From Aduncisulcus paluster (lineage: Eukaryota): DNA of 37,478 nt. Under the pieces are notes generated by a model. That model ran no database searches and had not been told where the DNA came from. It saw only the letters and a list, made by a program, of their open reading frames with translations. Location of the stretch: NCBI GenBank assembly GCA_024181965.1, contig BQXS01012576.1, positions 1 to 37,478 on the forward strand, written 5' to 3'. This document shows, in pieces, positions 3,001-37,478 of this stretch. The position numbers were made by a program, and so were the translations under genes. The first letter of the stretch is position 1. Each line of letters begins with the position of its first letter.

Positions 3001-4327
3001 GCAGATCTCTCCCTAACATCAGACGATTTCTTATTCAGGTCAGGCAAGCGTTTAACACCAACAGCTGTGTGGGGATCAATAAGACTATGAACAGTTGTGA
3101 TATGAGCAAGCTTTCCAAGGACATAGGCACAATATTCACGGACTCCTTCACTTGGATCATATCTAAGAGTCCTTAAAAGGGTTGGGGCGATTGTTGAAAT
3201 CATTTCTTGACACACAGATAAAGGGGGTCTTCTCAAAAGAGTAAATGAACCCCTGTCCTGTGCCATATGGGTGTGCTGGAGGTCATAAGAACGAGCACGG
3301 TCAGTTGAAATCACTTTGGACCTCGCTAAGGAAGCATTGGTATGCTGAAGATATGTACTCTTCCTGGAAGGGCTGGCTTTTTTGATAGAAGGAGGCGGGC
3401 GATATAATACTTGCTCCATCGTCTGTCCCAGCAAAGCATGTAATAAAACAACACCGGACTGTCGTAGTTCTTCTTCATGAATTGGAATACGACATCCAGA
3501 AGGACCATGTTCATACGATGAAGAACCAAGAGACAAAAACTCGGCGACAATAGAAACAACCCCAAGAGACAATGTCCTGTGAGCAAACCGAGAAAATAAC
3601 ACAGTAAATTGTGGAAAATCTTCAGGACGAATTAATTCAGGGGGGATATCCTTCCCACAGGCAAAGCGTAATATCCTACTATATAAATTGGTAAGGGATG
3701 CACGATAAGTTGCAGGAATACGCCGGTCTCCCATTATTTTAACGAATAATTTCAAAATTTGACTGCTTATAGATGATAAAAGAGTCTGGATACGTTCGAC
3801 GNNNNNNNNNNNNNNNNNNNNGCGACAATAGAAACAACCCCAAGAGACAATGTCCTGTGAGCAAACCGAGAAAATAACACAGTAAATTGTGGAAAATCTT
3901 CAGGACGAATTAATTCAGGGGGGATATCCTTCCCACAGGCAAAGCGTAATATCCTACTATATAAATTGGTAAGGGATGCACGATAAGTTGCAGGAATACG
4001 CCGGTCTCCCATTATTTTAACGAATAATTTCAAAATTTGACTGCTTATAGATGATAAAAGAGTCTGGATACGTTCGACGAATATATCAAGGCGCTTATCC
4101 GAAAAAAGCATTTCATCAAGAAGATTTAATACCTCAGCAAGCCGATATAACTCTTCTTCTTGTCCTGTTAGATGATAGTCAGATGGAAGAGACCTCTTAA
4201 CCTCATCGATAGATTCTACGGCTTCAGAAAATGCTTGAAGTAAAGTTTCAAGGACAACACGTTCATCAGCAAAGGGATCCTCAATACATGATGAAAAATT
4301 ATTCGGATTTATGTGTTGTTGGAACAT
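1..4327 (-). CDS. Large hypothetical protein, probably alpha-solenoid/HEAT-like; 3'-partial (>1349 aa), interrupted by the gap and duplication at 3544-4079
   Basis: Manual translation of the minus strand has no stop from 3599 to the window start. Its residues LFSRFAHRTLSLGVVSIV match the end of ORF 3767..4327, so removing one duplicate copy plus the Ns (278 nt) gives one frame from ATG 4327. HEAT-like segment LLRTLRYDPSEGVREYCAYVLGKLA near 3105-3180. Most of it is absent from the ORF track because it has no stop inside the window. Confidence 0.85.
3544..4079. repeat. 258-bp identical direct duplication flanking a 20-N gap (3544-3801 / 3822-4079)
   Basis: Both copies run gcgacaatagaaac...tacgttcgacg; the gap is 3802-3821. 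Confidence 0.95.
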
Positions 4328-4628: not shown

Positions 4629-5877
4629 ATGAATGGATTTAAAAAAGTATTTGAAGCTACTGGTGTCACACCTATTAATATCGATGCTATAAATCCATCT
4701 GTATCTTTTTCCCACACTCTCCCTGATAATCCGGCTTCCTCTGAGCATTCTGGAACCATAGGTGAATCAAAATATCAAAAAGTTAGTGAATTAGAATTAT
4801 TAGAAGAAGATGAGGAGGCCTTAAGGGTGTTTCATGAGTGTGAAGACCATATATTTTCGAAAGCACCTCCTGAAGTTCCACAATTTCACCATCCACATAT
4901 TCACCCTCAATATCGTGGACTTCGACTTTTTCTTGAAACCACTGAAAATCCTACACTTATTCCCGATGAAAAACTCGAGAGAGATAGACATGAAATTATG
5001 GAGAGTTTAACCCTTCAAGATGAGCAGTTTGATACAATTGAGCTTAAAGATGAACATTATTTTCAAGCTTGGATTCGAGTATGTGAAGAANNNNNNNNNN
5101 NNNNNNNNNNGGGTGTTTCATGAGTGTGAAGACCATATATTTTCGAAAGCACCTCCTGAAGTTCCACAATTTCACCATCCACATATTCACCCTCAATATC
5201 GTGGACTTCGACTTTTTCTTGAAACCACTGAAAATCCTACACTTATTCCCGATGAAAAACTCGAGAGAGATAGACATGAAATTATGGAGAGTTTAACCCT
5301 TCAAGATGAGCAGTTTGATACAATTGAGCTTAAAGATGAACATTATTTTCAAGCTTGGATTCGAGTATGTGAAGAAGATGAGGAGGCCTTAAGGGTGTTT
5401 CATGAGTGTGAAGACCATATATTTTCGAAAGCACCTCCTGAAGTTCCACAATTTCACCATCCACATATTCACCCTCAATATCGTGGACTTCGACTTTTTC
5501 TTGAAACCACTGAAAATCCTACACTTATTCCCGATGAAAAACTCGAGAGAGATAGACATGAAATTATGGAGAGTTTAACCCTTCAAGATGAGCAGTTTGA
5601 TACAATTGAGCTTAAAGATGAACATTATTTTCAAGCTTGGATTCGAGTATGTGAAGAAGATGTGAAACGATTGAGGAGTGGTGAAGTTTTGGGTTCTTCG
5701 AGTGAAAGGGGAGGAGTTCGTGAATATCAACAATTAATGACAAAATATAGAGAGAAAAAGGAAGAAGAAAGAAGAAAAAGACTGGAAAAGGATGAGAAAA
5801 AGAGTGAAGACGGTAGGAGGAAGAAAAAGAAATCGCGACATCACAAACATAGAAGCTCAAAATATGTTTCAAAATAA
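4629..5877 (+). CDS. Hypothetical protein with a tandem 94-aa repeat (three copies in the assembly) and a basic/charged C-terminus
   Basis: ORFs 4629..5123 and 5020..5877 join across the gap 5091-5110 if the 20 Ns stand for the 16 nt gatgaggaggccttaa. This gives 414 aa with three units, or 226 aa with one. C-terminal RRKKKKSRHHKHR is NLS-like. Confidence 0.75.
4803..5662. repeat. 282-bp tandem repeat, at least 3 identical copies, bounded by the 10-bp direct repeat GAAGAAGATG
   Basis: Units start at 4803, ~5085-5089 (across the gap) and 5371. The copy 2/copy 3 junction is fully resolved sequence. GAAGAAGATG is at 4803-4812, 5371-5380 and 5653-5662. Confidence 0.95.
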
Positions 5878-8671: not shown

Positions 8672-10562
8672 TTATGGAAGAGTTTTCTCTGATTTCCTCT
8701 GTTTCACCATTTCTTGGACTTCAACATCTGAATCCTCGAGCGAGACAATATCAGTCGTTTCCTTGCTTTTACATTTCATAAATTTCCATTGGTCCATGCT
8801 TTCACCATCGGTAGGCAATTTAACTGTTCCCACAATCATGACAATAAGCCCAATAATTCCAGATATGACATCAGAGAGAGGATAAGTCAAATAAATACCA
8901 TCGAGACCCATTGAAGGTGGCAAAGAATACAGGAAAATAATGTACAAAACACACTGACGGAGCAAAGAGAGGCCGATAGAGATCACAGGCCTTTGCATGG
9001 CTTGGAAGAAAATGGCAGCAGTCAAAGAACCAAAGCACATCACAAGTCCTGATATCATGGTACGGAGAGGAGCAACTCCCAAGGCTATAATGTCATCATC
9101 ATCTCCTTCATCGGCAAACATGCGTAGAAGCTTCTCTGGAACGCTCTGGAATATGATCTCCACAATGGCACATATAACAATCTGAATAATGCATACATAC
9201 AAAACCGTCTTCTTAATTCGACTCATAAGTTTAGCTCCCATGTTGGAACTCCATATAACAGTACCGGCAATACCGACGGCAACCGTGGGAAGAATGATGA
9301 AAATACTCAATTTTCCAACAACTCCTATAATGGCGAGAAGGTCAGTGACTTGATCAGCGGGCGCATAGGCATGAATTTGGTTGTTTACCAGGATTGTAAT
9401 GAAATTCTGAAGTGCTGATGGCAATCNNNNNNNNNNNNNNNNNNNNTATAACAATCTGAATAATGCATACATACAAAACCGTCTTCTTAATTCGACTCAT
9501 AAGTTTAGCTCCCATGTTGGAACTCCATATAACAGTACCGGCAATACCGACGGCAACCGTGGGAAGAATGATGAAAATACTCAATTTTCCAACAACTCCT
9601 ATAATGGCGAGAAGGTCAGTGACTTGATCAGCGGGCGCATAGGCATGAATTTGGTTGTTTACCAGGATTGTAATGAAATTCTGAAGTGCTGATGGCAATC
9701 CTGTTGCCAAAGAAAGAATAATAGCCTTGAAAGCTATTTTCAAATCCCAATGCCAAAAGTGATCCATTTTTAAGGACAATCCACACTTTTTCACAAGATA
9801 CCATATCGAGAATGGCATTACCACGTACTGAGCGATAATAGTACTGCAAGCGGCACCCTTAACACCCATGTCGGCAGAGAAGATAAGTAGAGGATCAACA
9901 GCAACATTAATTAGAGCAGAAGCAATACCAATAAGCATACTAACCATAGGTTTACCCATTGCCCTTATGAGACTGCTGGTTAATAAAGCAATGGAGTATC
10001 CAAAGGGAGTTCCGATGAGAATGATACGACCATAATCCATAGACTCTTGTTTCAAATCGTCACGAGCTCCCAAAGCAACAACAAGAGGTTCTAAAACTGG
10101 GAGACAACAAATTGGCACAAGGATACCATAGGAAATAGCCATCTTAAAAGCCACGGCAACGATATGGTTCATGCGATCGATATTCTTAGCTCCTTGAGCT
10201 TCAGCAAGTAATGCGGCCGAAGCAGAAAATAAACCTTGTGCCATGGACGAAACAACCATCTCAAATGCCATAAAGACAGAGGTTGAGGCGAGAGAATCAG
10301 TTGAATATTTTCCGATATAAATTGAATCACAGGTCGAATAAACGGCAGTTGTAAGCATTCCAATTAATGTTGGAATGATAAACATCATTAAAAGCATTCC
10401 TATGGGTTTGGTAAATAAGAATGTGGGATCATGCTCCTTATGTTTCTTGGGAGCTTTCTTACAGCACTTTTTGATTGTATCTTGGTCTTGAGGAGGAATA
10501 TCCACATCAGATTCTTGACGTTGAAGATCCAACTCTTTTGGGGACGATTCTAAAGAGGTCAT
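8672..10562 (-). CDS. MATE-family efflux transporter (MepA-like), 538 aa after removing the gap-flanking duplicate
   Basis: ORFs 9354..10598 and 8672..9472 overlap through a 254-bp duplication; removing 274 nt restores one frame. About 12 hydrophobic segments and MATE motifs YSTCDSIYIG, INVAVDPLLIF, MGVKGAACSTIIAQ, MGLDGIYLTYPLSD. First ATG at 10562. Confidence 0.92.
9173..9700. repeat. 254-bp identical direct duplication flanking a 20-N gap (9173-9426 / 9447-9700)
   Basis: Both copies run tataacaatctgaa...gatggcaatc; the gap is 9427-9446. Confidence 0.95.
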
Positions 10563-20316: not shown

Positions 20317-21272
20317 TTAGTAAAATCCAGACTTGCCAGATTTCACAACACATTTTTCTTCAAATGGTTGAACTTTCCATCCGTTTCCATTGTGAACAGC
20401 ACCAACGGGGCAACCAAATTCACAGGTAAAGCATCCAATGCATTGTTTGGGCCTTGTTACAACGACAAGCTTCTTGGAGAGTTTCTTTTCACGTCTTTCA
20501 GTGGGATCCTCTGTACGATCCACCAAATCAAAAACATTGTAAGGACATTCACGGAAACATTTTCCACATCCTGTACAGATATCTGTCTCAATAACAGGAG
20601 GAAAAGAACTGTAAGAACGCATAGCACCAGGAGTACAGATTTTTCCAACAGCTTTCATAAATAATCCTCCGGAGGGAGACTTTGGTGCAGGAGTTTTCTT
20701 AATGATGCCATCAATAGCAATTTTGGCATTCACATCGATAAGAGAATACTCTTTAGGACCCCAATGAGCAGATCCAGATTCAAATTTGGAAGCACTCTTT
20801 GTATGGATATAAGGAGCTACCACAACAAAGTAATGAGCAATATATCCGTGTTTAGGAGCAAGGATTTCTGATGCATGCTTGAAAAAGAGAGACTTCTTAG
20901 ATCCACCACTGGTACTGAAAAAAACACAAGGCTTGTTTCCAAGATCTGGAATTCTTGGGGACATCATAATTTCTTGGGTAATTAAAGGTTCTTGGAAACC
21001 CCATACGGGAGCTCCAAAACAGAACCCGTCAAAATCATCAGAATTGAAGAGAGGGGTTTCTGGGCCACGGAGGGCCTTGTTAAGAGAGAATTCTTTCACT
21101 GAATGACCCATTGCACTAAAGATTCGGCCCATTTCCTGAGCGACATGCTTTGTGTATCCGGTAAAGGAATTGTAGAGGATTGCAATCTGAATAAAGAATG
21201 AATATAGTTAATAAAACAGGGTAACAAATAATATCATGGAAATAATAAAAATGGGTACCATACTCTAACCAT
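20317..21272 (-). CDS. Flavodoxin-like + 2x[4Fe-4S] ferredoxin fusion (EFR1-type architecture), 292 aa; exons 21272-21264 and 21186-20317
   Basis: Spliced N-terminus MVR|IAILYNSFTGYTKHVAQEM contains the flavodoxin S-x-T-G-x-T phosphate loop, followed by GFCFGAPVW and VFFSTSGG. Two CxxCxxCxxxCP motifs (CTGCGKCFRECP, CIGCFTCEFGCP). Confidence 0.9.
21187..21263 (-). other. Spliceosomal intron (77 nt, phase 0) after codon 3 of the flavodoxin-ferredoxin gene
   Basis: Donor GTATGG, tattaac branch-like motif, acceptor tttattcAG; supplies an ATG for the first flavodoxin strand. Confidence 0.85.
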
Positions 21273-28807: not shown

Positions 28808-30823
28808 CTATTCATCGTCATCGTCAACAATGACCTCCAATCTTCCCTTGTTGATAACATCGAGCACTTCAGGGTTGGCCAGTCCACTCATGTCTCCCCA
28901 TTGTTCCTTGGGCTTACCATCAGCGATACCTCTGAGCATTCTCCTCATCATCTTTCCACTAAGAGTCTTTGGAAGGGCATCAACCCATTGGATGAGGGAA
29001 GGCTTGGCAAGCTCTCCAATCTTCTTCACAAGCATCTCACTATAGTCCTTCTTGAACTTCTCCAGCATAGCAGGGGTGGCTTTGGCACTCACTTGAGGGA
29101 ACAGACGGACAAAGAGATACAGACCTCTTCCCATGATAGGGTGTGGACAGCCGACAGCAGCTACTTCAGCAACAGCAGGGTGCATGGAGATACAACTCTC
29201 AACCTCACCTGTCCCAATACGATGGGCATACCCTGTCTTAATAACATCATCGACACGACCAATCACTGTGTACAGGCCATCCTCGTCACGCCTTGCAACA
29301 TCTCCAGAGTAGAAATAACCAGGATATGGGTCAAAATAAGTCTTCTTGTACTCGTCCATGTGTCCATAGAAACCAGCAATCATTCCAGCCCAAGGCCTCT
29401 TGAATACAAGAACACCTTCAACCTCATTGCCTTCAAGTTCTTTCCCACTATCATCAAGGAGAGCAGGGAATTGGGATGGCTGGGGAATATAGCCTCCACC
29501 AGGTTTGAATCCAGAGATCTCACGGTGGTGTCCAAGGAAACAGCCTTCAGATTGACCGTAAATGTGGATAAGCTCACTCTCACCATCCCTACAAACAGTC
29601 TTATGGATCCATTGCCAAAGATCGGGACTGCACACTTCCCCAGCGGTGATAACGGTTCTCAAGTGGGTCAGATCACAAGAAGAGACATATTTAGGACCGA
29701 GGGCACGTATCAAACGGTAATATGTTGGCTGAGTCATGAAGGAAGCAACAGAGTGACGCTCAAGAATCTCAAAAACACGACCAGGGGAAGGATAGAAGAA
29801 GTCTCCCTCGTACATAAGAGTAGTGATTCGAAGAAGGAAGGGACCAAGAACAGCGTAAGCGATTCCTCCAATCCAGGCGGGGTTTCCACAACACCACACA
29901 ACATCACCAGTGTCTGTATTATGATAGATATCCGGACCCATAGCTGCCCATACACAGTAAGCAATTGTATGCACAATACCTTTCGGAACACCACTTGAAC
30001 CAGAAGAATAAATGATAAAGAAAGGTTCGTTGGCCTCAACCAAAGTATAATCACATTCTTTGGGCATTGAAGCAATCTCTTTCTCGAAATTCAAATCGGT
30101 CGGATGTGATTCATAGTCTAAGCCAGTGAAATGATGGACAATTGTGTGACGGACGTTGGGACAGCCAGAGAGGGCTACATTAGCTTTTTCTTTGATTGGA
30201 TCATGTTTAATCCCGGAGATTCCTTCATCACAGGTGATAAGAATAGAGCTTCCAGATTGTTCAATACGAGTTTGAAGGGCTTCAGCGGAGAGAGCAGAAA
30301 AAACCGTAACGAATATGGCACCAAGACGAGCACAAGCTAAAATGGCCATAATCATCTGAGGACGCATTGGAAGGTAAATACAAACTCGATCTCCCTTTGT
30401 AACACCAAGTTTCTTGAGGAGATTAGCATACTGACAAACATGTTCATGCATCTCTTGATAAGAAAAGCGTTTGATATTTGAAGGGTCATTTCCTTCCCAT
30501 ATTAGGGCAATATCATCACCATTTCCTGCCTCAATGTGTCGATCCAATGCATTCCAGCAATAGTTGGTTTCATAACCAGTGAACCATTTTATCTTTCCGT
30601 TTTTCATGTCACAATCGTAAATTTTGCTCCCTTTTTTCATCCAAACGATGTGTTTCTTGAATTCTCCTTCCCAATAAGCTTCTGGATCACTCCAAGATTC
30701 ATCGAACATTGAACGGAACTGAGATGCATTGTAGTGCAAAGGAAGAGCGCTATTACAATCCCACTGAGCATATTTCTTCTTAGTGGGCATCTCAAGCGGC
30801 ATGAAAGGTTTCTCCTCGGGCAT
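28808..30823 (-). CDS. AMP-forming acetyl-/acyl-CoA synthetase (Acs-like); start could alternatively be ATG 30853 or 30886
   Basis: NYCWNALDRH, ALIWEG, GVTKGDRVCIYLPM, P-loop YSSGSSGVPKG, YFYSGDVARRDEDG, GRVDDVI, and catalytic-Lys motif LPKTLSGKMMRR. Confidence 0.95.
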   Translation of the reverse strand: MPEEKPFMPLEMPTKKKYAQWDCNSALPLHYNASQFRSMFDESWSDPEAYWEGEFKKHIVWMKKGSKIYDCDMKNGKIKWFTGYETNYCWNALDRHIEAGNGDDIALIWEGNDPSNIKRFSYQEMHEHVCQYANLLKKLGVTKGDRVCIYLPMRPQMIMAILACARLGAIFVTVFSALSAEALQTRIEQSGSSILITCDEGISGIKHDPIKEKANVALSGCPNVRHTIVHHFTGLDYESHPTDLNFEKEIASMPKECDYTLVEANEPFFIIYSSGSSGVPKGIVHTIAYCVWAAMGPDIYHNTDTGDVVWCCGNPAWIGGIAYAVLGPFLLRITTLMYEGDFFYPSPGRVFEILERHSVASFMTQPTYYRLIRALGPKYVSSCDLTHLRTVITAGEVCSPDLWQWIHKTVCRDGESELIHIYGQSEGCFLGHHREISGFKPGGGYIPQPSQFPALLDDSGKELEGNEVEGVLVFKRPWAGMIAGFYGHMDEYKKTYFDPYPGYFYSGDVARRDEDGLYTVIGRVDDVIKTGYAHRIGTGEVESCISMHPAVAEVAAVGCPHPIMGRGLYLFVRLFPQVSAKATPAMLEKFKKDYSEMLVKKIGELAKPSLIQWVDALPKTLSGKMMRRMLRGIADGKPKEQWGDMSGLANPEVLDVINKGRLEVIVDDDDE

Positions 30824-31369
30824 TGTTTCGTAATCAAAAAGCAAAATCGGCATCACAATTGTTGGGCAAGTGCAAATGGACTTCATAAACCAAATAGAAA
30901 ATGAAAAAATTAAAGACAAAAACGCATGAAAGAATTTTATTCATTGTTTATTATTTAATATTGTTATTTTCTCGCTCACAGGGAGAAAACCATTTTCGCA
31001 GATAAAACTACTTGCACCGTCTTCATAATATGAATCGTTTGCATATCTAGAATATTTGAAACTGAATTTAAGGAACACTTAAACCCCGAACGGCATTTTT
31101 GTGCATGTTTTTGAATGAAAGACTTCCCATGTTGAAGTTAACTTAACTTGAAGTTGGCTTTGTCAACGTGCTCTTTTAATCGCCCTGAACATATTCAGCG
31201 ATAATTAAGTGGCGAACTTTCAGTGGGTTCTTCACAGCTAGCATGAGAGTATTCATATATCGCGAGTGAACCACAGCTTGAAGCTGACAACTTCAGAATC
31301 CTGAATATTTCAAGTAATACTTTGATTGAAACAATAATAAATAAGGTTTGAGAAAGAATGAAGTGATTT

Positions 31370-32127: not shown

Positions 32128-35100
32128 TCATCCACTTATAACGAGGCGATTGATAATATTTCCACGAGCTTGGGGTGAAACACATTGTAATACAGCAGAT
32201 GTTGACAATTCTCTTCTTGTAAAAGGTTTAAGTATCGATCCTTTGAATAAACAAAATGATTGAGGCTTTTTCTTCCCAATGGATGTCCAAATTTCAGCAG
32301 AACTAGGAAATGGAACAAATACGAACTCGCCTTGAGCTTTTGTAGTTTGAGATCTATCTAAATCGGAGTCTTTGTCTTCAAGTCCATCATCTGAATCGCG
32401 AGATTTGACAAGTTCAGTTATGGATGTCCAAAGAGTTCTCTTGGGCTCACCTTCTGGAGAAGCGGGCAGTGTAGTCTTGGAAGAAGGTGTTTGAACTTCA
32501 GATTTCTTCCATAAATATCCTTGTATACTCACAAATTCAGGAAATAACCTTTCGCCTTTCCGAGGAATTCCAATCATTCTGGCCAATTTCTTCCCGGGTA
32601 TTGTTATAAATACTCTCGTTTTACGACTAGAACTTGAAATAAGGGATCGCTTAGGCCACTGAATGATGGACTCAGAAGATCCTCTTTGCGAAGATTTATA
32701 TGGATATTGATCACGAGCACTTCTGGACATTGAAGGAGCAAACGATGACCCAAGATCACTTGAATCCTCACTAGGACGTAGAGTTCCATGGGATCCATCG
32801 CCGGTGCTTGTTATCAGAGAGACAGCGCCACTCACAAAAGAGGATAATATTCCTGGCTTTGGTGGAGAAGCTGGAAGAGAGCACTTGATTGGAGTGATGG
32901 ATTCGTTCTCCGTTGCAAATGAATGTTCGAATCCACCGGAATTAGAAGAGCGGATGGAAATGTGGCTGGCATCCAAGATTCGAGGAAGACTCCGGCTTTT
33001 TGGAGGGGATATTGATGAAGTGGAGGAATGTTTGAAGTGGCATGATGCAATTTGAGTCGAATATATCATAGAATTGGGAGTTTCTTTTCCTTTCGGTTGC
33101 TGGGTTACTTTCTGTTGTTTTTTGGGAGGGGAAGGCAATGGTTTCTTCTTGTTCTTTCCTTTCTTTTTCTTGGGAGACTTTGGAGATTTTGACTCCTTGA
33201 ACGAATCAAAGCCCATTATTACAACGCTGGATTCATCATCAGAGTTTTCATACAAATGTGGAACCTTCTTCTGGGGTTGTGAACGAGCAGATGGTTTCTT
33301 CTTCTTCTTTTGAATTTCTATGTCTTTCTCTGGGAATGAGGATTCATAAGAATACTCATAATCACACTCCCGTGATAATGAGGGCATCGATACGATTGTA
33401 GAATCTATATCTTCCTGCTCGAGGGAACTATATTCAACAAAAGCATATTCATACTCATACTCATATTCTTCCCTTGGAGGAGGGATATATTTCTTTGGAC
33501 GCGCTCGTCGAGGACTGGGAGTGCGAGATGATTTACCATGCATTTTTCGAAAAGACCGATCGATATCATACTTTGAACTTAAATGTTTTTGATTCTTCCT
33601 TCCTTTTTTGTTTGTTGAGTGTTTGTTTTTCTTATTTCTAGAAGAATATTTGCTTCGCGAATGAGAATACTTGCTCTTTTTTCTTCTTTTTTTGGACTTT
33701 TCAGAAGCTGATGCATCACATGCCCAAAAACAACAGAATATCCCTGATTTGCCTGTGCATATCCATCGGAAAATGAAGATAGCAACAATAATAGCTCCAA
33801 TTTCATACAAAAAGGTTGTGTAGCAACGGAGGATCCAGAGACACTTAACGTTGAATAATCCACAACTTGACACACAATATCCTGGGAGACGACCATACCA
33901 CTCAGATGATTCATAACCAGGCTGATCGATGATACCATCGGAAGTGTCGGTGGCTTTTGGTGTGAACGTCACTACTTTTGTATCATACAGCTTGCTTGAT
34001 GAAGAAGATGATCGTAGATACACGGTGCACTCCATTTCTTCCGACAAAGGAGAGGTTGATGATATGGAAAAAGATCGTTGAACTTCTTGTTGAGCTTCAA
34101 TTCCAACAGTTTGGGAAGGTACGGTCATTATTTCTTCACTACATTCAGTAACAGACAATGAGAAATCAGCGTTAAGCAAAGAATCTTCGTTCTTAACAAC
34201 CACAATCATCTTTCCTTCTTCTGCGAGGGCTTCATACTCTTCAACATAAGCATCAGAGATACTGGCATCAGAGGCTTCATTGGTTACGAATGATATAGAA
34301 TCTGCTGCGAGCTCAATAAGCATCATTGTTGTTTGTTCTCCTGGGACGTCATATGTCAACGTATATGCAATAGATCCTTCTGTGTCTTGTTCTGTCTCGA
34401 CAGTGCACCCATCACCATAGATATCGACAAGATATAGCGGTTGTTCACTGTTATCGATTCGATCCAGATCAGAATCATACAGATCACTGGCTTGATTGGC
34501 AAGACAATCGCCTGCACTCGAGTTTGAACATGTCTGTGTGTTAAAAGCAGTGAAGGAAGTTCCAACCCGATTACATAGACTTCCATCCAATGAGATATTC
34601 TGATCTGAAATTATCAACCAAGCATCCTTACCGAGAGCAACAAGATCATCATCAGATGGAAACATGGGAGCAAGGAGATACTTATTCACTGGACTTTTCT
34701 TGAGTGCTGTGGCTTCAAAATCACCGACAATTTTAAGAAAAACGTTTGAATCTGCAGAAGTAAGTTGAGTAAGGGATGGATCGAGTGTGAATGTCTGTGT
34801 TTCGGCAGTTGTTCCAGATCCAGTCGTTATGGAACAGGTGATCGAATAATAAATATCCTCATTTCCAATCAAAAATCCGGCATACCATAATTCAGACATT
34901 CGAAGACAATGGGCAAAATCTTTGAGAGTTGTAAGACCGCAAGTAATTCCACTTCTTAATTCTGTATCATATGTGTAAGCTTGACAATTACAACACATGC
35001 CCTCGGATCCATCGATAGCATTCATGTCTGAGTCATACGAATAGCCGCATGTTGGTTCAGATCCACTGTCGACACAAGGGCTGGTGAGATAATTGGAAGT

Positions 35101-35463
35101 TATGACCTCCTCATATACCCGAGAATTAAACATTTTCAAATATTGAAGTGGATACACAAATTGAGCTTGTGACTTCGAACACGAGACACTAATATTCGTT
35201 TCTACTGTGACTTCATTGTCATTTTCATCTGTAACACTGTCAATAACGGCTTCGACGGATGTTCCAATGGATGTGGAGTCAAGAGATAAGGATATTACAA
35301 CTTTTTGTTCACAATTTTGATCAATACCGGAATCAGAAGATGTATTAGTGCAACTTTCAAGTGTAGATGATGATAAAATTGAACATATAGAAAAATTTAA
35401 GAGAATCGAAAAAAATATGACAAGAAAAGAAATTCGAAGGGAAATAAAGTTCAAATAATTCAT
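32128..35463 (-). CDS. HAP2: HAP2/GCS1 gamete membrane fusogen (class II fusexin), 1111 aa, intronless
   Basis: Signal peptide; SSSTLESC...CEQKVVISL; YPLQYLKMFNSRVYEE; CVD...PTCG...SEGMCCNC; AHCLRMSELWY; core motif LDGSLCNRVGTSFTAFNTQTC...GDCLANQ; Ig-like domain III; one TM (~aa 549-568); Cys cluster and polybasic tail. Confidence 0.95.
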   Translation of the reverse strand: MNYLNFISLRISFLVIFFSILLNFSICSILSSSTLESCTNTSSDSGIDQNCEQKVVISLSLDSTSIGTSVEAVIDSVTDENDNEVTVETNISVSCSKSQAQFVYPLQYLKMFNSRVYEEVITSNYLTSPCVDSGSEPTCGYSYDSDMNAIDGSEGMCCNCQAYTYDTELRSGITCGLTTLKDFAHCLRMSELWYAGFLIGNEDIYYSITCSITTGSGTTAETQTFTLDPSLTQLTSADSNVFLKIVGDFEATALKKSPVNKYLLAPMFPSDDDLVALGKDAWLIISDQNISLDGSLCNRVGTSFTAFNTQTCSNSSAGDCLANQASDLYDSDLDRIDNSEQPLYLVDIYGDGCTVETEQDTEGSIAYTLTYDVPGEQTTMMLIELAADSISFVTNEASDASISDAYVEEYEALAEEGKMIVVVKNEDSLLNADFSLSVTECSEEIMTVPSQTVGIEAQQEVQRSFSISSTSPLSEEMECTVYLRSSSSSSKLYDTKVVTFTPKATDTSDGIIDQPGYESSEWYGRLPGYCVSSCGLFNVKCLWILRCYTTFLYEIGAIIVAIFIFRWICTGKSGIFCCFWACDASASEKSKKRRKKSKYSHSRSKYSSRNKKNKHSTNKKGRKNQKHLSSKYDIDRSFRKMHGKSSRTPSPRRARPKKYIPPPREEYEYEYEYAFVEYSSLEQEDIDSTIVSMPSLSRECDYEYSYESSFPEKDIEIQKKKKKPSARSQPQKKVPHLYENSDDESSVVIMGFDSFKESKSPKSPKKKKGKNKKKPLPSPPKKQQKVTQQPKGKETPNSMIYSTQIASCHFKHSSTSSISPPKSRSLPRILDASHISIRSSNSGGFEHSFATENESITPIKCSLPASPPKPGILSSFVSGAVSLITSTGDGSHGTLRPSEDSSDLGSSFAPSMSRSARDQYPYKSSQRGSSESIIQWPKRSLISSSSRKTRVFITIPGKKLARMIGIPRKGERLFPEFVSIQGYLWKKSEVQTPSSKTTLPASPEGEPKRTLWTSITELVKSRDSDDGLEDKDSDLDRSQTTKAQGEFVFVPFPSSAEIWTSIGKKKPQSFCLFKGSILKPFTRRELSTSAVLQCVSPQARGNIINRLVISG

Positions 35464-35926
35464 AAAAATGGAGGGAAATAAAAAAAAATTTCAAGAAAAT
35501 GGGAGAAACTCATATCGAGAACAGTTTGGCACAATCAAAAAAAAGACAAATTCTAGAAAATTAGAACCAAATTTTAGAAAAAGTCTTCGCCACATCAAAA
35601 CGACTTTATGGACACTAAACCAATTATTTTCAACCCATTTGTAAAATGATAATAACTATGAAAGGAAAGAAATCATTATTTCATTACTATCACAAACAAC
35701 AGTAGAACAGATAAGAACTGAAGGAATATCATCACAATTATTACTTAAAGGATGATATATTCAATATTCATAAAATTAAATTGCAGCAAAACGGCTGTAT
35801 TATCAAGTCCATTTTTCTTTGCAATACCAAGTTTCATTTGTGATTTAAACCTTGTATTTGGATTTGAATTTCAGTTTTCTTTTTAATTTATCTTATTATA
35901 TATAATATTTCAATCATTCTGAACAA

Positions 35927-37478
35927 ATGTCTGATCACGGCGAAGATCATATTGATAGCCCATCTCAACCGGCTCATTTATATGTTTTACGGAAAGTAGC
36001 ATCCCAGACTCTGTTTGATGATGATGATTTTCCACTTTTTGGACCTCCAAGTGATTTTCAATCAGTTGGGGGCACTCAAGGTTCTTTATCAGGTACACCT
36101 GCCTTTTTACAACTTCAATTATCTAGTCCTGAATATACTTCCAAGCCTCCTGTTGATATTGATGGTGATATGGCTTCTGACAACCCCATGGCACAATTGC
36201 ATCGCCTTGCGATGGAACTTCAGTCTGTAGATAAGGAATCCCAGGAAAAAGAATACACAAAACCTACTTTTGATATACATGATCACTCTAAATCTCACTC
36301 TCGCTCTGGATCTCAAGATAGTCCATTGCCTATGGCACAAATTCGAAAAGAATCTAAGCGCATTGATGCCTCTCCTTCGCCAACCAAAACGCCTCCACAG
36401 ACTCCTTCTGTTGTCTTTTCAACCCTTCCCTCCCATCCTCCCTCGACACATGTTGATCCTCTCTCATTGTGTCCTTCCACTCTTTCTCAGCATTTAAACC
36501 TCATGGAAGACAATGACGGTGAAGGCTTACGCATTGTGGGATTGGATGAGAATGGTGAAGACGCGTCCACTTCAGGCAATAGTAGTCCAGGTGGTAATGA
36601 TGCTCGTAATACAGGAGGGAGTTATCCAATGGAATTGTTTGATCGTGAAAACGCTACAATTAGTGCTGGGGAGCGGCAGACAGATAGTTTGTCGCCTGAA
36701 CCCCATGTTGAGATACGTCCACAATTGATAAGTCGCCCCCCATCCTTCGATCTTCTCAAAGATCGATCTGGATCATTGATGCGTATATCCTCTTCTGATG
36801 AAACCACTACTCATCCGTCTGGTTCTCCCAAGAGCTCTCCCTCTCATCCAACTGATCCATCCGACACCAAGAAACACTCCATTCCAATCCATCCCCAGGC
36901 CATTCGGGATGCCATCCTTGGTGATTCAGCACAACACACATCCAGATCTTCGTCCATTCCTGACCTTCTATATGATCGCTCTTTGGGTCTTTCTTGCCGC
37001 ACTCCTCCTTCTTCAGGGAGATTTAAGGATGACAGTGCACAAGGTCATCAAAAGTCCTCCTCTTCTTCTTTTTCCTCCTCTTCTTTTTCCTCCTCTTCTT
37101 CCTCTATTCGTCGCTCTAGCTCCACTTCTACGCTTGTCAAGAATCATCACAGTCGGAGTGATATCAGAGCACCCTCTTCAACGCTCTCAACAGTGGATTC
37201 TATCCCTTCTCATGAAAGGGAAGATGGGAATACTATGGATGATATCAACCCCTTGTCTTCATTCACACCTCTCTCATTTATGCTAAATAGGATGTCAAAG
37301 TCCCATTCATCGCAATCATTCAGTAGAAACTATGATGGAATTTTAGGAGAACAAGAAAGCTTGGGGACAAAAACACTGACAAAAGAGGAGATTAGAGAAG
37401 AGATTGCAGCTCAGAAAGAACGACAAGATGAGCAAAAAAAATGGCAGTTCCTTCTTTCTGGTGGAACTCTTTCCGAGA
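35927..37478 (+). CDS. Ser/Pro/Asp-rich hypothetical protein, 3'-partial (>517 aa)
   Basis: Manual translation from ATG 35927 (MSDHGEDHIDSPSQ...) is open to the window end (...EEIAAQKERQDEQKKWQFLLSGGTLSE). Missing from the ORF track because it has no stop. Confidence 0.8.
   Translation, partial: MSDHGEDHIDSPSQPAHLYVLRKVASQTLFDDDDFPLFGPPSDFQSVGGTQGSLSGTPAFLQLQLSSPEYTSKPPVDIDGDMASDNPMAQLHRLAMELQSVDKESQEKEYTKPTFDIHDHSKSHSRSGSQDSPLPMAQIRKESKRIDASPSPTKTPPQTPSVVFSTLPSHPPSTHVDPLSLCPSTLSQHLNLMEDNDGEGLRIVGLDENGEDASTSGNSSPGGNDARNTGGSYPMELFDRENATISAGERQTDSLSPEPHVEIRPQLISRPPSFDLLKDRSGSLMRISSSDETTTHPSGSPKSSPSHPTDPSDTKKHSIPIHPQAIRDAILGDSAQHTSRSSSIPDLLYDRSLGLSCRTPPSSGRFKDDSAQGHQKSSSSSFSSSSFSSSSSSIRRSSSTSTLVKNHHSRSDIRAPSSTLSTVDSIPSHEREDGNTMDDINPLSSFTPLSFMLNRMSKSHSSQSFSRNYDGILGEQESLGTKTLTKEEIREEIAAQKERQDEQKKWQFLLSGGTLSE

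What the first reader, a model, noticed from the sequence alone, without database searches (positions are those of the whole stretch)
32128..35463. Intact HAP2/GCS1 fusogen: evidence for cryptic sex or cell fusion in an apparently anaerobic protist
Seen: a full-length gene with signal peptide, conserved Cys framework, candidate salt-bridge pair E118 (VYEE) and R170 (LRSGITC), HAP2 core motif, TM helix, juxtamembrane Cys cluster (CTGKSGIFCCFWAC) and polybasic stretch. The predicted fusion-loop segment between CCNC and AHCLR is short (QAYTYDTELRSGITCGLTTLKDF) and poor in Trp/Phe. Established: HAP2 is the ancestral eukaryotic gamete fusogen, and a conserved Glu-Arg bridge organises its fusion loops. 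Inference: the organism, probably a metamonad-type flagellate (a group in which gamete fusion is rarely observed), retains a working fusion apparatus, possibly with a minimal membrane-insertion surface.
Basis: partly seen in the sequence, partly recalled or inferred. Interest (0 to 1): 0.75.

Follow-up and report, generated by a model that had tools for sequence, protein, structure and literature searches.

The report
Intact HAP2 fusogen gene, free-living fornicate
This is a complete, well-conserved copy of HAP2, the ancient sperm-egg fusion protein, in a free-living low-oxygen flagellate related to Giardia; it hints at unseen sex, but the same gene is already on record in the organism's closest free-living relatives.

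Summary
Window 32128-35463 (-) is one uninterrupted 1111-codon ORF. It matches Pfam HAP2-GCS1 almost end to end (E 6.9e-89). It keeps every family-invariant residue tested (31 of 31), including the Glu118/Arg170 pair. Its ectodomain folds confidently (pLDDT 85.7) into the class II fusogen fold of solved HAP2 structures (TM 0.77). [quoted passage not shown] The HAP2 groups with Kipferlia bialata HAP2.

The "minimal fusion loop" is weak. Only one sub-loop is short, its Trp/Phe count equals the family median, and Trypanosoma cruzi HAP2 is already known to use three short loops.

HAP2 in free-living metamonads (Carpediemonas, Kipferlia, Monocercomonoides) and the cryptic-sex inference drawn from it were published in 2021. 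No paper I could search mentions it for Aduncisulcus. Expression, selection and the other sex genes could not be tested.

The scan has noted HAP2 genes before on other genomes.

Verdict: correct, a new member of a known kind, moderately low interest.

The parts
32128..35463 (-). Complete HAP2/GCS1 coding sequence, 1111 codons plus stop (32128-32130), no intron needed
   Evidence: ORF list and translation. Pfam PF10699 E 6.9e-89. Collinear alignments to solved HAP2 chains.
35377..35463 (-). Signal peptide, about residues 1-29
   Evidence: Hydrophobic segment 3-35. Alignment to T. cruzi HAP2 starts at residue 29. A database gene call (P0002) starts at M111 and so lacks this part and the conserved C38 and C51.
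33820..35376 (-). Ectodomain, residues 30-548: class II fusogen domains I, II and III plus a Cys-rich stem
   Evidence: AlphaFold2 model with mean pLDDT 85.7 and pTM 0.77. Foldseek: Chlamydomonas HAP2 6e18_A E 4.7e-43, TM 0.77; Arabidopsis 5ow3; T. cruzi 5ow4; then archaeal Fsx1, viral class II proteins and EFF-1.
33829..35316 (-). Pfam HAP2-GCS1 match, residues 50-545
   Evidence: profile positions 3-512 of 515, 299.2 bits.
34900..35112 (-). Domain II tip, residues 118-188: E118, the bc connection, CCNC 157-160, the cd connection with R170 and C175, and AHCLR 184-188
   Evidence: In the 92-row alignment E118 is Glu in 91 rows and R170 is Arg in 90. The equivalent salt bridge is E126-R185 in Chlamydomonas, E117-R163 in Arabidopsis and E121-R176 in T. 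cruzi, per PMC6089408 (passages).
33760..33819 (-). Transmembrane helix, about residues 549-568
   Evidence: Hydropathy segment 544-576, peak 2.05.
33676..33759 (-). Juxtamembrane Cys cluster (569-582) and polybasic stretch (to KKRRKK 591-596)
   Evidence: Positions. A review says polybasic and potentially palmitoylated Cys residues in HAP2 tails affect localisation or function in other species (PMC8777248, passages).
32131..33675 (-). Long lineage-specific cytoplasmic tail, residues 597-1111, rich in Ser, Lys and Pro
   Evidence: Composition: S 18%, K 12%. No similarity to 149 HAP2 homologues, best E 0.19. No second Pfam family at E<=1. TM plus tail is 564 residues, against at most 449 in the 91 aligned homologues.
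35464..35926 (.). 463-bp AT-rich spacer shared with the divergently oriented ORF 35927-37477 (+); presumed promoter region
   Evidence: ORF coordinates. GC is 0.317 over 35001-36000. Promoter function is inferred, not tested.

Best explanation
The gene is the intact, vertically inherited HAP2/GCS1 orthologue of the free-living microaerophilic fornicate Aduncisulcus paluster, or a near-identical relative.

The product is a type I membrane protein: signal peptide, class II fusogen ectodomain of about 520 residues, one TM helix, a Cys-rich and polybasic juxtamembrane segment, and a tail of about 515 residues.

By analogy with characterised HAP2 proteins, its most likely action runs as follows. 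It sits on the surface of one gamete-like cell. It inserts the nonpolar tip of domain II into the partner membrane; that tip is held in shape by the E118-R170 salt bridge and the conserved disulfides. It then trimerises and folds back into a hairpin, merging the two membranes.

Shown here: family membership, fold, conservation of all invariant residues, topology, lineage. Inferred: that it is expressed, that it fuses cells, and that the fusion belongs to a sexual cycle. The tip resembles the three-short-loop type of T. cruzi HAP2 rather than the amphipathic-helix type of plants.
For: - Pfam PF10699: E 6.9e-89, 299.2 bits, profile positions 3-512 of 515.
- phmmer against solved chains: T. cruzi 5ow4_A 2.4e-61, Arabidopsis 5ow3_C 2e-41, Chlamydomonas chains about 1e-32, 7s0k 5.8e-26.
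- Representative library: 658 relatives at E<=1e-3.
- Conservation: the query keeps 31 of 31 informative columns that are >=90% conserved among 91 homologues. At the 80% level it keeps 48 of 53, which is 0.906 against a family median of 0.925.
- Salt-bridge residues: E118 is Glu in 91 of 92 rows and R170 is Arg in 90 of 92.
- Fold: AF2 ectodomain model pLDDT 85.7, pTM 0.77; Foldseek TM 0.77 to Chlamydomonas HAP2, TMt 0.83 to Arabidopsis and 0.85 to T. cruzi.
- Topology: hydropathy shows one signal peptide and one TM helix.
- Open frame: the frame stays open for 526 low-complexity codons past the juxtamembrane segment. By my own estimate from base composition, chance would give roughly e^-35.
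- Lineage: the neighbouring acetyl-CoA synthetase is 620/633 identical to an EukProt protein labelled Carplike_NY0171. NY0171 is A. paluster, whose genome GC is 39.1% (PMC9933649, read whole).
- Phylogeny: the query groups with Kipferlia bialata HAP2 and one metagenome protein at SH-aLRT 99.
Against: - Expression: no evidence of any kind.
- Transcript fragments: no near-identical shorter protein turned up in the word-index search. That search does hold this organism's EukProt set, since it found the ACS there. This is weak negative evidence at best.
- Selection: none could be measured, because the nearest relative is only 31-34% identical.
- Other sex genes (GEX1, SPO11, DMC1, HOP2/MND1) could not be searched; no whole genome is held.
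- Salt-bridge geometry and trimer formation were not measured: no coordinates were available to scripts, and three copies exceed the complex tool's stated size limit.
- No sexual or parasexual process has been seen directly in Metamonada according to PMC8516963.
- Species assignment rests on one neighbouring gene plus GC content.
Confidence: 0.75

Rival explanations
1. The protein is a working fusogen but serves a non-sexual or parasexual cell-cell fusion (for example fusion of vegetative cells or cyst-stage cells), not gamete fusion followed by meiosis.
For: Nothing here ties the gene to gametes. Sex has not been observed in Metamonada (PMC8516963). The unusually long, lineage-specific tail could reflect different regulation.
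Against: In every organism where HAP2 has been tested, the papers read here describe it as a gamete or mating fusogen. The related free-living metamonads that keep HAP2 also keep the karyogamy gene GEX1 (Supplementary Data 2 of PMC8516963).
Confidence: 0.1
2. The gene is a silent relic: no longer used, and not yet visibly decayed.
For: No expression evidence was obtained. No transcript-derived fragment was found in the protein collection. Per the published table, parasitic and diplomonad relatives and Trichomonas have no HAP2 hit, so loss is common in the wider group.
Against: The 1111-codon frame is intact, including 526 low-complexity codons. The query keeps 31 of 31 invariant family residues, and 32 of the 91 homologues score lower than it on the 80% conserved-column measure, so it ranks in the middle of the family. 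The branch length in the tree is ordinary, 0.71 against a median of 0.63.
Confidence: 0.12
3. The gene does not belong to the flagellate: it comes from a contaminating eukaryote in the culture, or from a recent transfer or virus-like element carrying a fusexin.
For: The culture contains other organisms (food bacteria; PMC9933649). Fusexins do occur on mobile elements in archaea (7p4l hit; earlier scan notes).
Against: The gene lies on the same 37.5-kb scaffold as an ACS gene 98% identical to a transcript-derived protein of the same organism, with no N-run between them. Its GC (about 0.40) matches the neighbouring coding regions. It groups with the HAP2 of another fornicate, Kipferlia, at SH-aLRT 99. 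Its architecture is the typical eukaryotic one with a TM anchor.
Confidence: 0.03

Closest known systems
Kipferlia bialata HAP2 (GIQ82473.1, KIPB_003620, g3620.t1; UniRef name 'Generative cell specific-1/HAP2 domain-containing protein')
   Same: Nearest named relative in the tree (clade SH-aLRT 99). 158/509 identical over the ectodomain. The same short first cd sub-loop of 9 residues. Also a free-living fornicate. Listed as the Hap2 of K. bialata in Supplementary Data 2 of PMC8516963.
   Different: Only 31% identical. The tails are unrelated. The Kipferlia protein is 872 aa against 1111 aa here.
Trypanosoma cruzi HAP2 (PDB 5OW4; Fedry et al. 2018, PMC6089408)
   Same: Best sequence match among solved structures (E 2.4e-61, residues 29-567). 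TMt 0.85 over domain II. The salt bridge E121-R176 corresponds to E118-R170. Its membrane surface is made of three short loops without an amphipathic helix, and the model here predicts mostly coil in that segment.
   Different: In the alignment the cd connection here is 4 residues shorter. According to the review passage, T. cruzi HAP2 has almost no cytoplasmic tail; this protein has about 515 residues.
Chlamydomonas reinhardtii HAP2 (PDB 5MF1, 6DBS, 6E18)
   Same: Best structural match (TM 0.77, E 4.7e-43). A long cytoplasmic domain of 500 residues or more, with polybasic and potentially palmitoylated Cys motifs that matter for localisation or function (review passage).
   Different: 23-24% identity. 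The alga is predicted to have two fusion loops bearing amphipathic helices; nothing of the kind is predicted here.
Hap2 of Carpediemonas membranifera, C. frisia and Monocercomonoides exilis (Salas-Leiva et al. 2021, PMC8516963)
   Same: The same inference was already made: HAP2 plus GEX1 in free-living metamonads is taken as strong evidence of unseen sexual reproduction. The table shows Hap2 in these taxa and Kipferlia, and blanks for three Giardia genomes, Spironucleus, Trepomonas and Trichomonas.
   Different: Aduncisulcus was not among the 18 proteomes of that study (head row). I did not align these three sequences by name.

Membership tests
HAP2/GCS1 (Pfam PF10699), eukaryotic gamete fusogen | Significant, near full-length match to the family profile | tested here: met
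   E 6.9e-89, 299.2 bits against a cut-off of 27.4; profile positions 3-512 of 515.
HAP2/GCS1 (Pfam PF10699), eukaryotic gamete fusogen | Three-domain class II fusion protein fold of the ectodomain | tested here: met
   AF2 pLDDT 85.7, pTM 0.77. The top 9 listed Foldseek PDB ranks are all HAP2 chains, with TM up to 0.77 (query-normalised) and 0.85 (target-normalised); Fsx1, viral class II proteins and EFF-1 follow.
HAP2/GCS1 (Pfam PF10699), eukaryotic gamete fusogen | Conserved disulfide-forming Cys framework | tested here: met
   All Cys columns conserved in >=90% of 91 homologues are Cys in the query: C38, 51, 130, 139, 157, 158, 160, 175, 186, 297, 312, 320, 441, 479. Stem Cys 530, 534, 541 and 547 are also present. 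Disulfide pairing itself was not measured.
HAP2/GCS1 (Pfam PF10699), eukaryotic gamete fusogen | Invariant Glu-Arg salt bridge anchoring the fusion loops | tested here: inconclusive
   Both residues sit in the right columns: E118 is Glu in 91/92 rows and R170 is Arg in 90/92. Equivalents are named in PMC6089408.
HAP2/GCS1 (Pfam PF10699), eukaryotic gamete fusogen | Type I topology: signal peptide, single C-terminal TM anchor | tested here: met
   Two hydrophobic segments only, 3-35 and 544-576. This is a hydropathy scan, not a dedicated predictor.
HAP2/GCS1 (Pfam PF10699), eukaryotic gamete fusogen | Trimeric post-fusion hairpin | not tested
   Three copies of the 519-residue ectodomain exceed the 1000-residue limit stated for the complex tool, so no job was sent.
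HAP2/GCS1 (Pfam PF10699), eukaryotic gamete fusogen | Gamete- or mating-specific expression, and a requirement for cell fusion | not testable with these tools
Fornicate (Carpediemonas-like organism) HAP2 orthologue group | Groups with HAP2 of another fornicate rather than with other eukaryotes or prokaryotic relatives | tested here: met
   Clade of the query, K. bialata P0010 and metagenome protein P0004 with SH-aLRT 99. Quick IQ-TREE, LG+G4, 92 rows, 522 columns. Only 6 of 92 rows carry names, and no bootstrap or AU test was run.

The most novel reading that the evidence does not exclude
Aduncisulcus paluster, a culturable free-living relative of Giardia, has an unobserved HAP2-driven gamete fusion step. 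Fornicate HAP2 proteins (this one and Kipferlia's) use a reduced, Tyr/Leu/Ile-based three-short-loop insertion surface like that of trypanosomes. They couple it to a very long lineage-specific cytoplasmic tail that controls when and where fusion happens. If so, this gene is a ready marker for finding the first gametes in Fornicata.
Probability: 0.45. Interest if true: 0.55.

Novelty: new member of a known kind. Interest (0 to 1): 0.3.

Why it matters
Sex has not been directly observed in Metamonada according to PMC8516963, so the case for it rests on gene inventories. This gene adds one more free-living fornicate to the published pattern. In that pattern HAP2 is kept in Carpediemonas, Kipferlia and Monocercomonoides, and no hit is reported for Giardia, Spironucleus, Trepomonas or Trichomonas.

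The strain is in culture, so the gene gives a concrete probe (transcript, antibody, tagged protein) for looking for gametes. It does not change the picture, because the inference was already drawn for sister lineages. From memory of fornicate phylogeny, not from any call, Kipferlia branches closer to diplomonads than Aduncisulcus does, so this gene would not narrow the point of HAP2 loss.

Tried and rejected
- Whole-genome search for HAP2 and other sex genes: no genome is held for this window. GEX1, SPO11, DMC1 and HOP2/MND1 were therefore not searched.
Nothing can be said on expression.
- Word-index protein searches. The near-length search returned only the window's own called protein, among 7997 scored candidates. 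The 'shorter' search returned only one distant protein (P0123, 28% identity), among 7043 candidates. So no close paralogue and no transcript fragment was found. The index needs shared 5-mers.
- dN/dS: not computable. The nearest relatives are 31-34% identical.
- Tail: no Pfam family at E<=1. No ESM Atlas neighbour; the Atlas holds the full 1111-aa sequence but no model. BLASTP against 149 HAP2 homologues gave a best E of 0.19. A single-sequence AF2 run on residues 850-1111 gave pLDDT 35.2, which is uninterpretable.
- Trimer prediction: not sent; three ectodomains exceed the tool's stated size limit.
- Model coordinates are not exposed to scripts, so the E118-R170 distance and disulfide geometry were not measured.
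- Earlier notes of the scan for this genome: none.
- Paper search was badly framed (min_terms 2 did not force the organism's name) and gave nothing useful. One search replaced it.
- Second naming look-up of 10 further homologues: only one carried a name, Pygsuia biforma.
- Considered and dropped: a kinetoplastid or heterolobosean origin, suggested by the best PDB hit being T. cruzi. It is rejected by the ACS neighbour and the tree.
Full report
**1. Observation**

The minus strand of window 32128-35463 carries one uninterrupted ATG-started ORF of 1111 codons under table 11 and table 1.
- VYEE 116-119, which gives E118
- CCNC 157-160
- LRSGITC 169-175, which gives R170
- AHCLR 184-188
- the 23-residue segment 161-183
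- the Cys cluster 569-582
- KKRRKK 591-596

A hydropathy scan finds two hydrophobic segments only: 3-35 (signal peptide) and 544-576 (TM helix). The window has three 20-N runs, at 3802, 5091 and 9427. None is near the gene.

**2. What it is**

Sequence evidence:
- Pfam gives a single family, HAP2-GCS1 (PF10699). The match is E 6.9e-89, 299.2 bits against a cut-off of 27.4, covering residues 50-545 and profile positions 3-512 of 515.
- Six distinct solved sequences match, all HAP2: 5ow4_A at 2.4e-61 over residues 29-567, 5ow3_C at 2e-41, three Chlamydomonas chains near 1e-32, and 7s0k_A at 5.8e-26.
- A filter-only HMMER search of 1.84 billion representatives finds 658 relatives at E<=1e-3 and 153 at E<=1e-30. 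Apart from the window's own called protein, the best are only 32-33% identical.

Conservation was tested on an alignment:
- I aligned the ectodomain (residues 30-548) with 91 of the 149 listed non-self hits. I left out 58 that were short or matched in several pieces.
- Among the 91 homologues, 32 columns are >=90% one residue. One of these is the start Met, which I had trimmed from the query. The query has the family residue at the other 31 of 31.
- At the 80% level it keeps 48 of 53 columns, or 0.906. The family median is 0.925 and 32 of the 91 homologues score lower.
- E118 is Glu in 91 of 92 rows and R170 is Arg in 90 of 92. These are the columns of the salt bridge that Fedry et al. 2018 give as E126-R185 (Chlamydomonas), E117-R163 (Arabidopsis) and E121-R176 (T. 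cruzi). R163A abolishes Arabidopsis gamete fusion (PMC6089408, passages).

Fold evidence:
- AlphaFold2 on that alignment gives mean pLDDT 85.7 and pTM 0.77, a mostly beta structure.
- Foldseek against the PDB puts HAP2 chains at all of the top nine ranks. The best are 6e18_A (E 4.7e-43, TM 0.77), 5ow3 (TMt 0.83) and 5ow4 (TMt 0.85).
- Archaeal Fsx1, bunyavirus, alphavirus and retroviral class II proteins and C. elegans EFF-1 follow.

**3. Whose gene it is**

- No whole genome is held.
- The acetyl-CoA synthetase gene 1.2 kb downstream (28808-30886, minus strand) is 620/633 identical to an EukProt protein labelled Carplike_NY0171. It is 68% identical to an NCBI protein of Aduncisulcus paluster.
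- The genome announcement PMC9933649 (read whole) states that NY0171 is A. paluster. It describes a free-living microaerophilic fornicate whose draft genome has 39.1% GC. The window's coding parts run at about 0.40-0.47 GC.
- No N-run lies between the two genes.
- In a quick maximum-likelihood tree (92 rows, 522 columns, LG+G4) the query forms a clade with Kipferlia bialata HAP2 and one metagenome protein, SH-aLRT 99. Names come; only 6 of the 92 rows are named.

I infer the species only and did not try to identify the record.

**4. The fusion-loop claim**

| Segment | Query | Family median | Range | Rows as short or shorter (query included) |
|---|---|---|---|---|
| C160..C186, whole cd connection | 25 aa | 29 | 23-43 | 5 of 85 |
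| First cd part, C160..R170 | 9 aa | 13 | 4-18 | 10 of 85, including Kipferlia at 9 |
| Second cd part, R170..C186 | 15 aa | 16 | 13-24 | 44 of 90 |
| bc segment, E118..C130 | 11 aa | 10 | 7-18 | 61 of 89 |

- The W+F count is 1, equal to the family median. The hydrophobic fraction is 0.28 against 0.23.
- T. cruzi HAP2, the best solved sequence match, is described as using three small nonpolar loops with no amphipathic helix.
- The model here shows mostly coil over this segment, with block pLDDT of 71-81.

The tip is thus of a known short-loop type. It is not an outlier.

**5. The tail**

- After the TM helix come the Cys cluster, a polybasic run and about 515 further residues, rich in Ser (18%) and Lys (12%).
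- TM plus tail is 564 residues, more than in any of the 91 aligned homologues, where the maximum is 449.
- A review notes tails of 500 residues or more in Chlamydomonas and Toxoplasma. It also notes that polybasic and potentially palmitoylated Cys residues affect localisation or function (PMC8777248, passages).
- The tail has no detectable relative or domain. A single-sequence fold of its last 262 residues was uninformative, at pLDDT 35.2.
- Its open frame is nevertheless far longer than chance would leave. This is my own estimate from base composition.

**6. How it most likely works**

- Shown: a complete type I class II fusogen of the HAP2 family with all invariant residues.
- Inferred from characterised orthologues: surface display on one mating partner, insertion of the domain II tip into the other membrane, trimerisation and hairpin fold-back, and membrane merger.
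- Not shown: expression, fusion activity, and any link to meiosis.

**7. What is known already**

- Salas-Leiva et al. 2021 (PMC8516963; passages, Supplementary Data 2) list Hap2 for Carpediemonas membranifera, C. frisia, K. bialata (g3620.t1, the same protein as my P0010) and Monocercomonoides exilis.
- The same table has blanks for three Giardia genomes, Spironucleus salmonicida, Trepomonas and Trichomonas vaginalis.
- The authors call Hap2 plus Gex1 strong evidence for sexual reproduction in C. membranifera, while noting that no sexual process has been directly observed in Metamonada.
- Aduncisulcus was not among their taxa.
- In the searchable library, 'Aduncisulcus' with 'HAP2' returns only a classification paper. 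'Aduncisulcus' with 'meio' returns that paper and an unrelated Giardia preprint. 'NY0171' returns only the genome announcement, which does not mention HAP2.
- The protein itself is already in public collections. A truncated call starts at M111, and the full 1111-aa sequence is in the ESM Atlas.
- Earlier notes of this scan report HAP2 genes on other genomes (Naegleria, Cyanidioschyzon, bacterial and archaeal relatives) and none for this genome.

**8. Verdict**

This is a new member of a known kind. Interest is 0.3.

Noticed in passing
window 3544-4079, 4798-5658, 9173-9700: Each of the three 20-N runs (3802-3821, 5091-5110, 9427-9446) is flanked by direct duplicates of 254-293 nt: two pairs are 100% identical, and at the third the copies either side of the N-run are 91% (a third copy is 99% to the first). 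This is the signature of overlapping contig ends joined with a gap instead of being merged. The joins split the MatE transporter gene into two overlapping ORFs (8672-9472 and 9354-10562) and create a false internal repeat in ORF 5020-5877.
   Followed up: partly
window 35133-35463 (residues 1-110 of the HAP2 ORF): The gene call held in the protein collection (P0002, 1001 aa) starts at M111. It therefore lacks the signal peptide and the conserved C38 and C51. Homology to T. cruzi and Arabidopsis HAP2 begins at residues 20-29, so M1 at 35463 is the better start.
   Followed up: yes
window 28808-30886 (-): AMP-forming acetyl-CoA synthetase. After two fornicate hits (98% and 68%) and a partial Aduncisulcus protein (58%), the next rows that carry names are bacterial or archaeal MAG proteins at 39-42% identity. 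This is a possible prokaryote-derived gene, as is common in anaerobic protists. The 13 mismatches to the NY0171 transcript-derived protein all lie in the last quarter of the protein (residues 526-691), which suggests alleles or a paralogue-chimeric transcript.
   Followed up: no
window 20317-21132 (-): A 271-aa protein with a C-terminal 2x[4Fe-4S] ferredoxin-type domain (Fer4 family hits, E down to 4.9e-11). This fits an anaerobic or microaerophilic metabolism.
   Followed up: no
window 35927-37477 (+): A Ser-rich ORF of at least 517 aa with no Pfam family lies head-to-head with HAP2 across a 463-bp AT-rich spacer. An earlier scan note on a red alga described HAP2 paired divergently with a receptor-like gene. 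Nothing comparable is recognisable here.
   Followed up: partly
window 32131-32330 (last ~65 residues of the HAP2 tail): The extreme C-terminus is less low-complexity than the rest of the tail. The single-sequence model draws several strands followed by a terminal helix there, but at pLDDT about 30-40, so no fold can be claimed.
   Followed up: partly
whole window: Many long ORFs (1244, 1157, 806, 613 and 517 aa) have no Pfam family or only a short domain, and are rich in Ser/Pro/His low-complexity sequence. GC alternates between about 0.42-0.48 in coding stretches and 0.25-0.31 in spacers.
   Followed up: no
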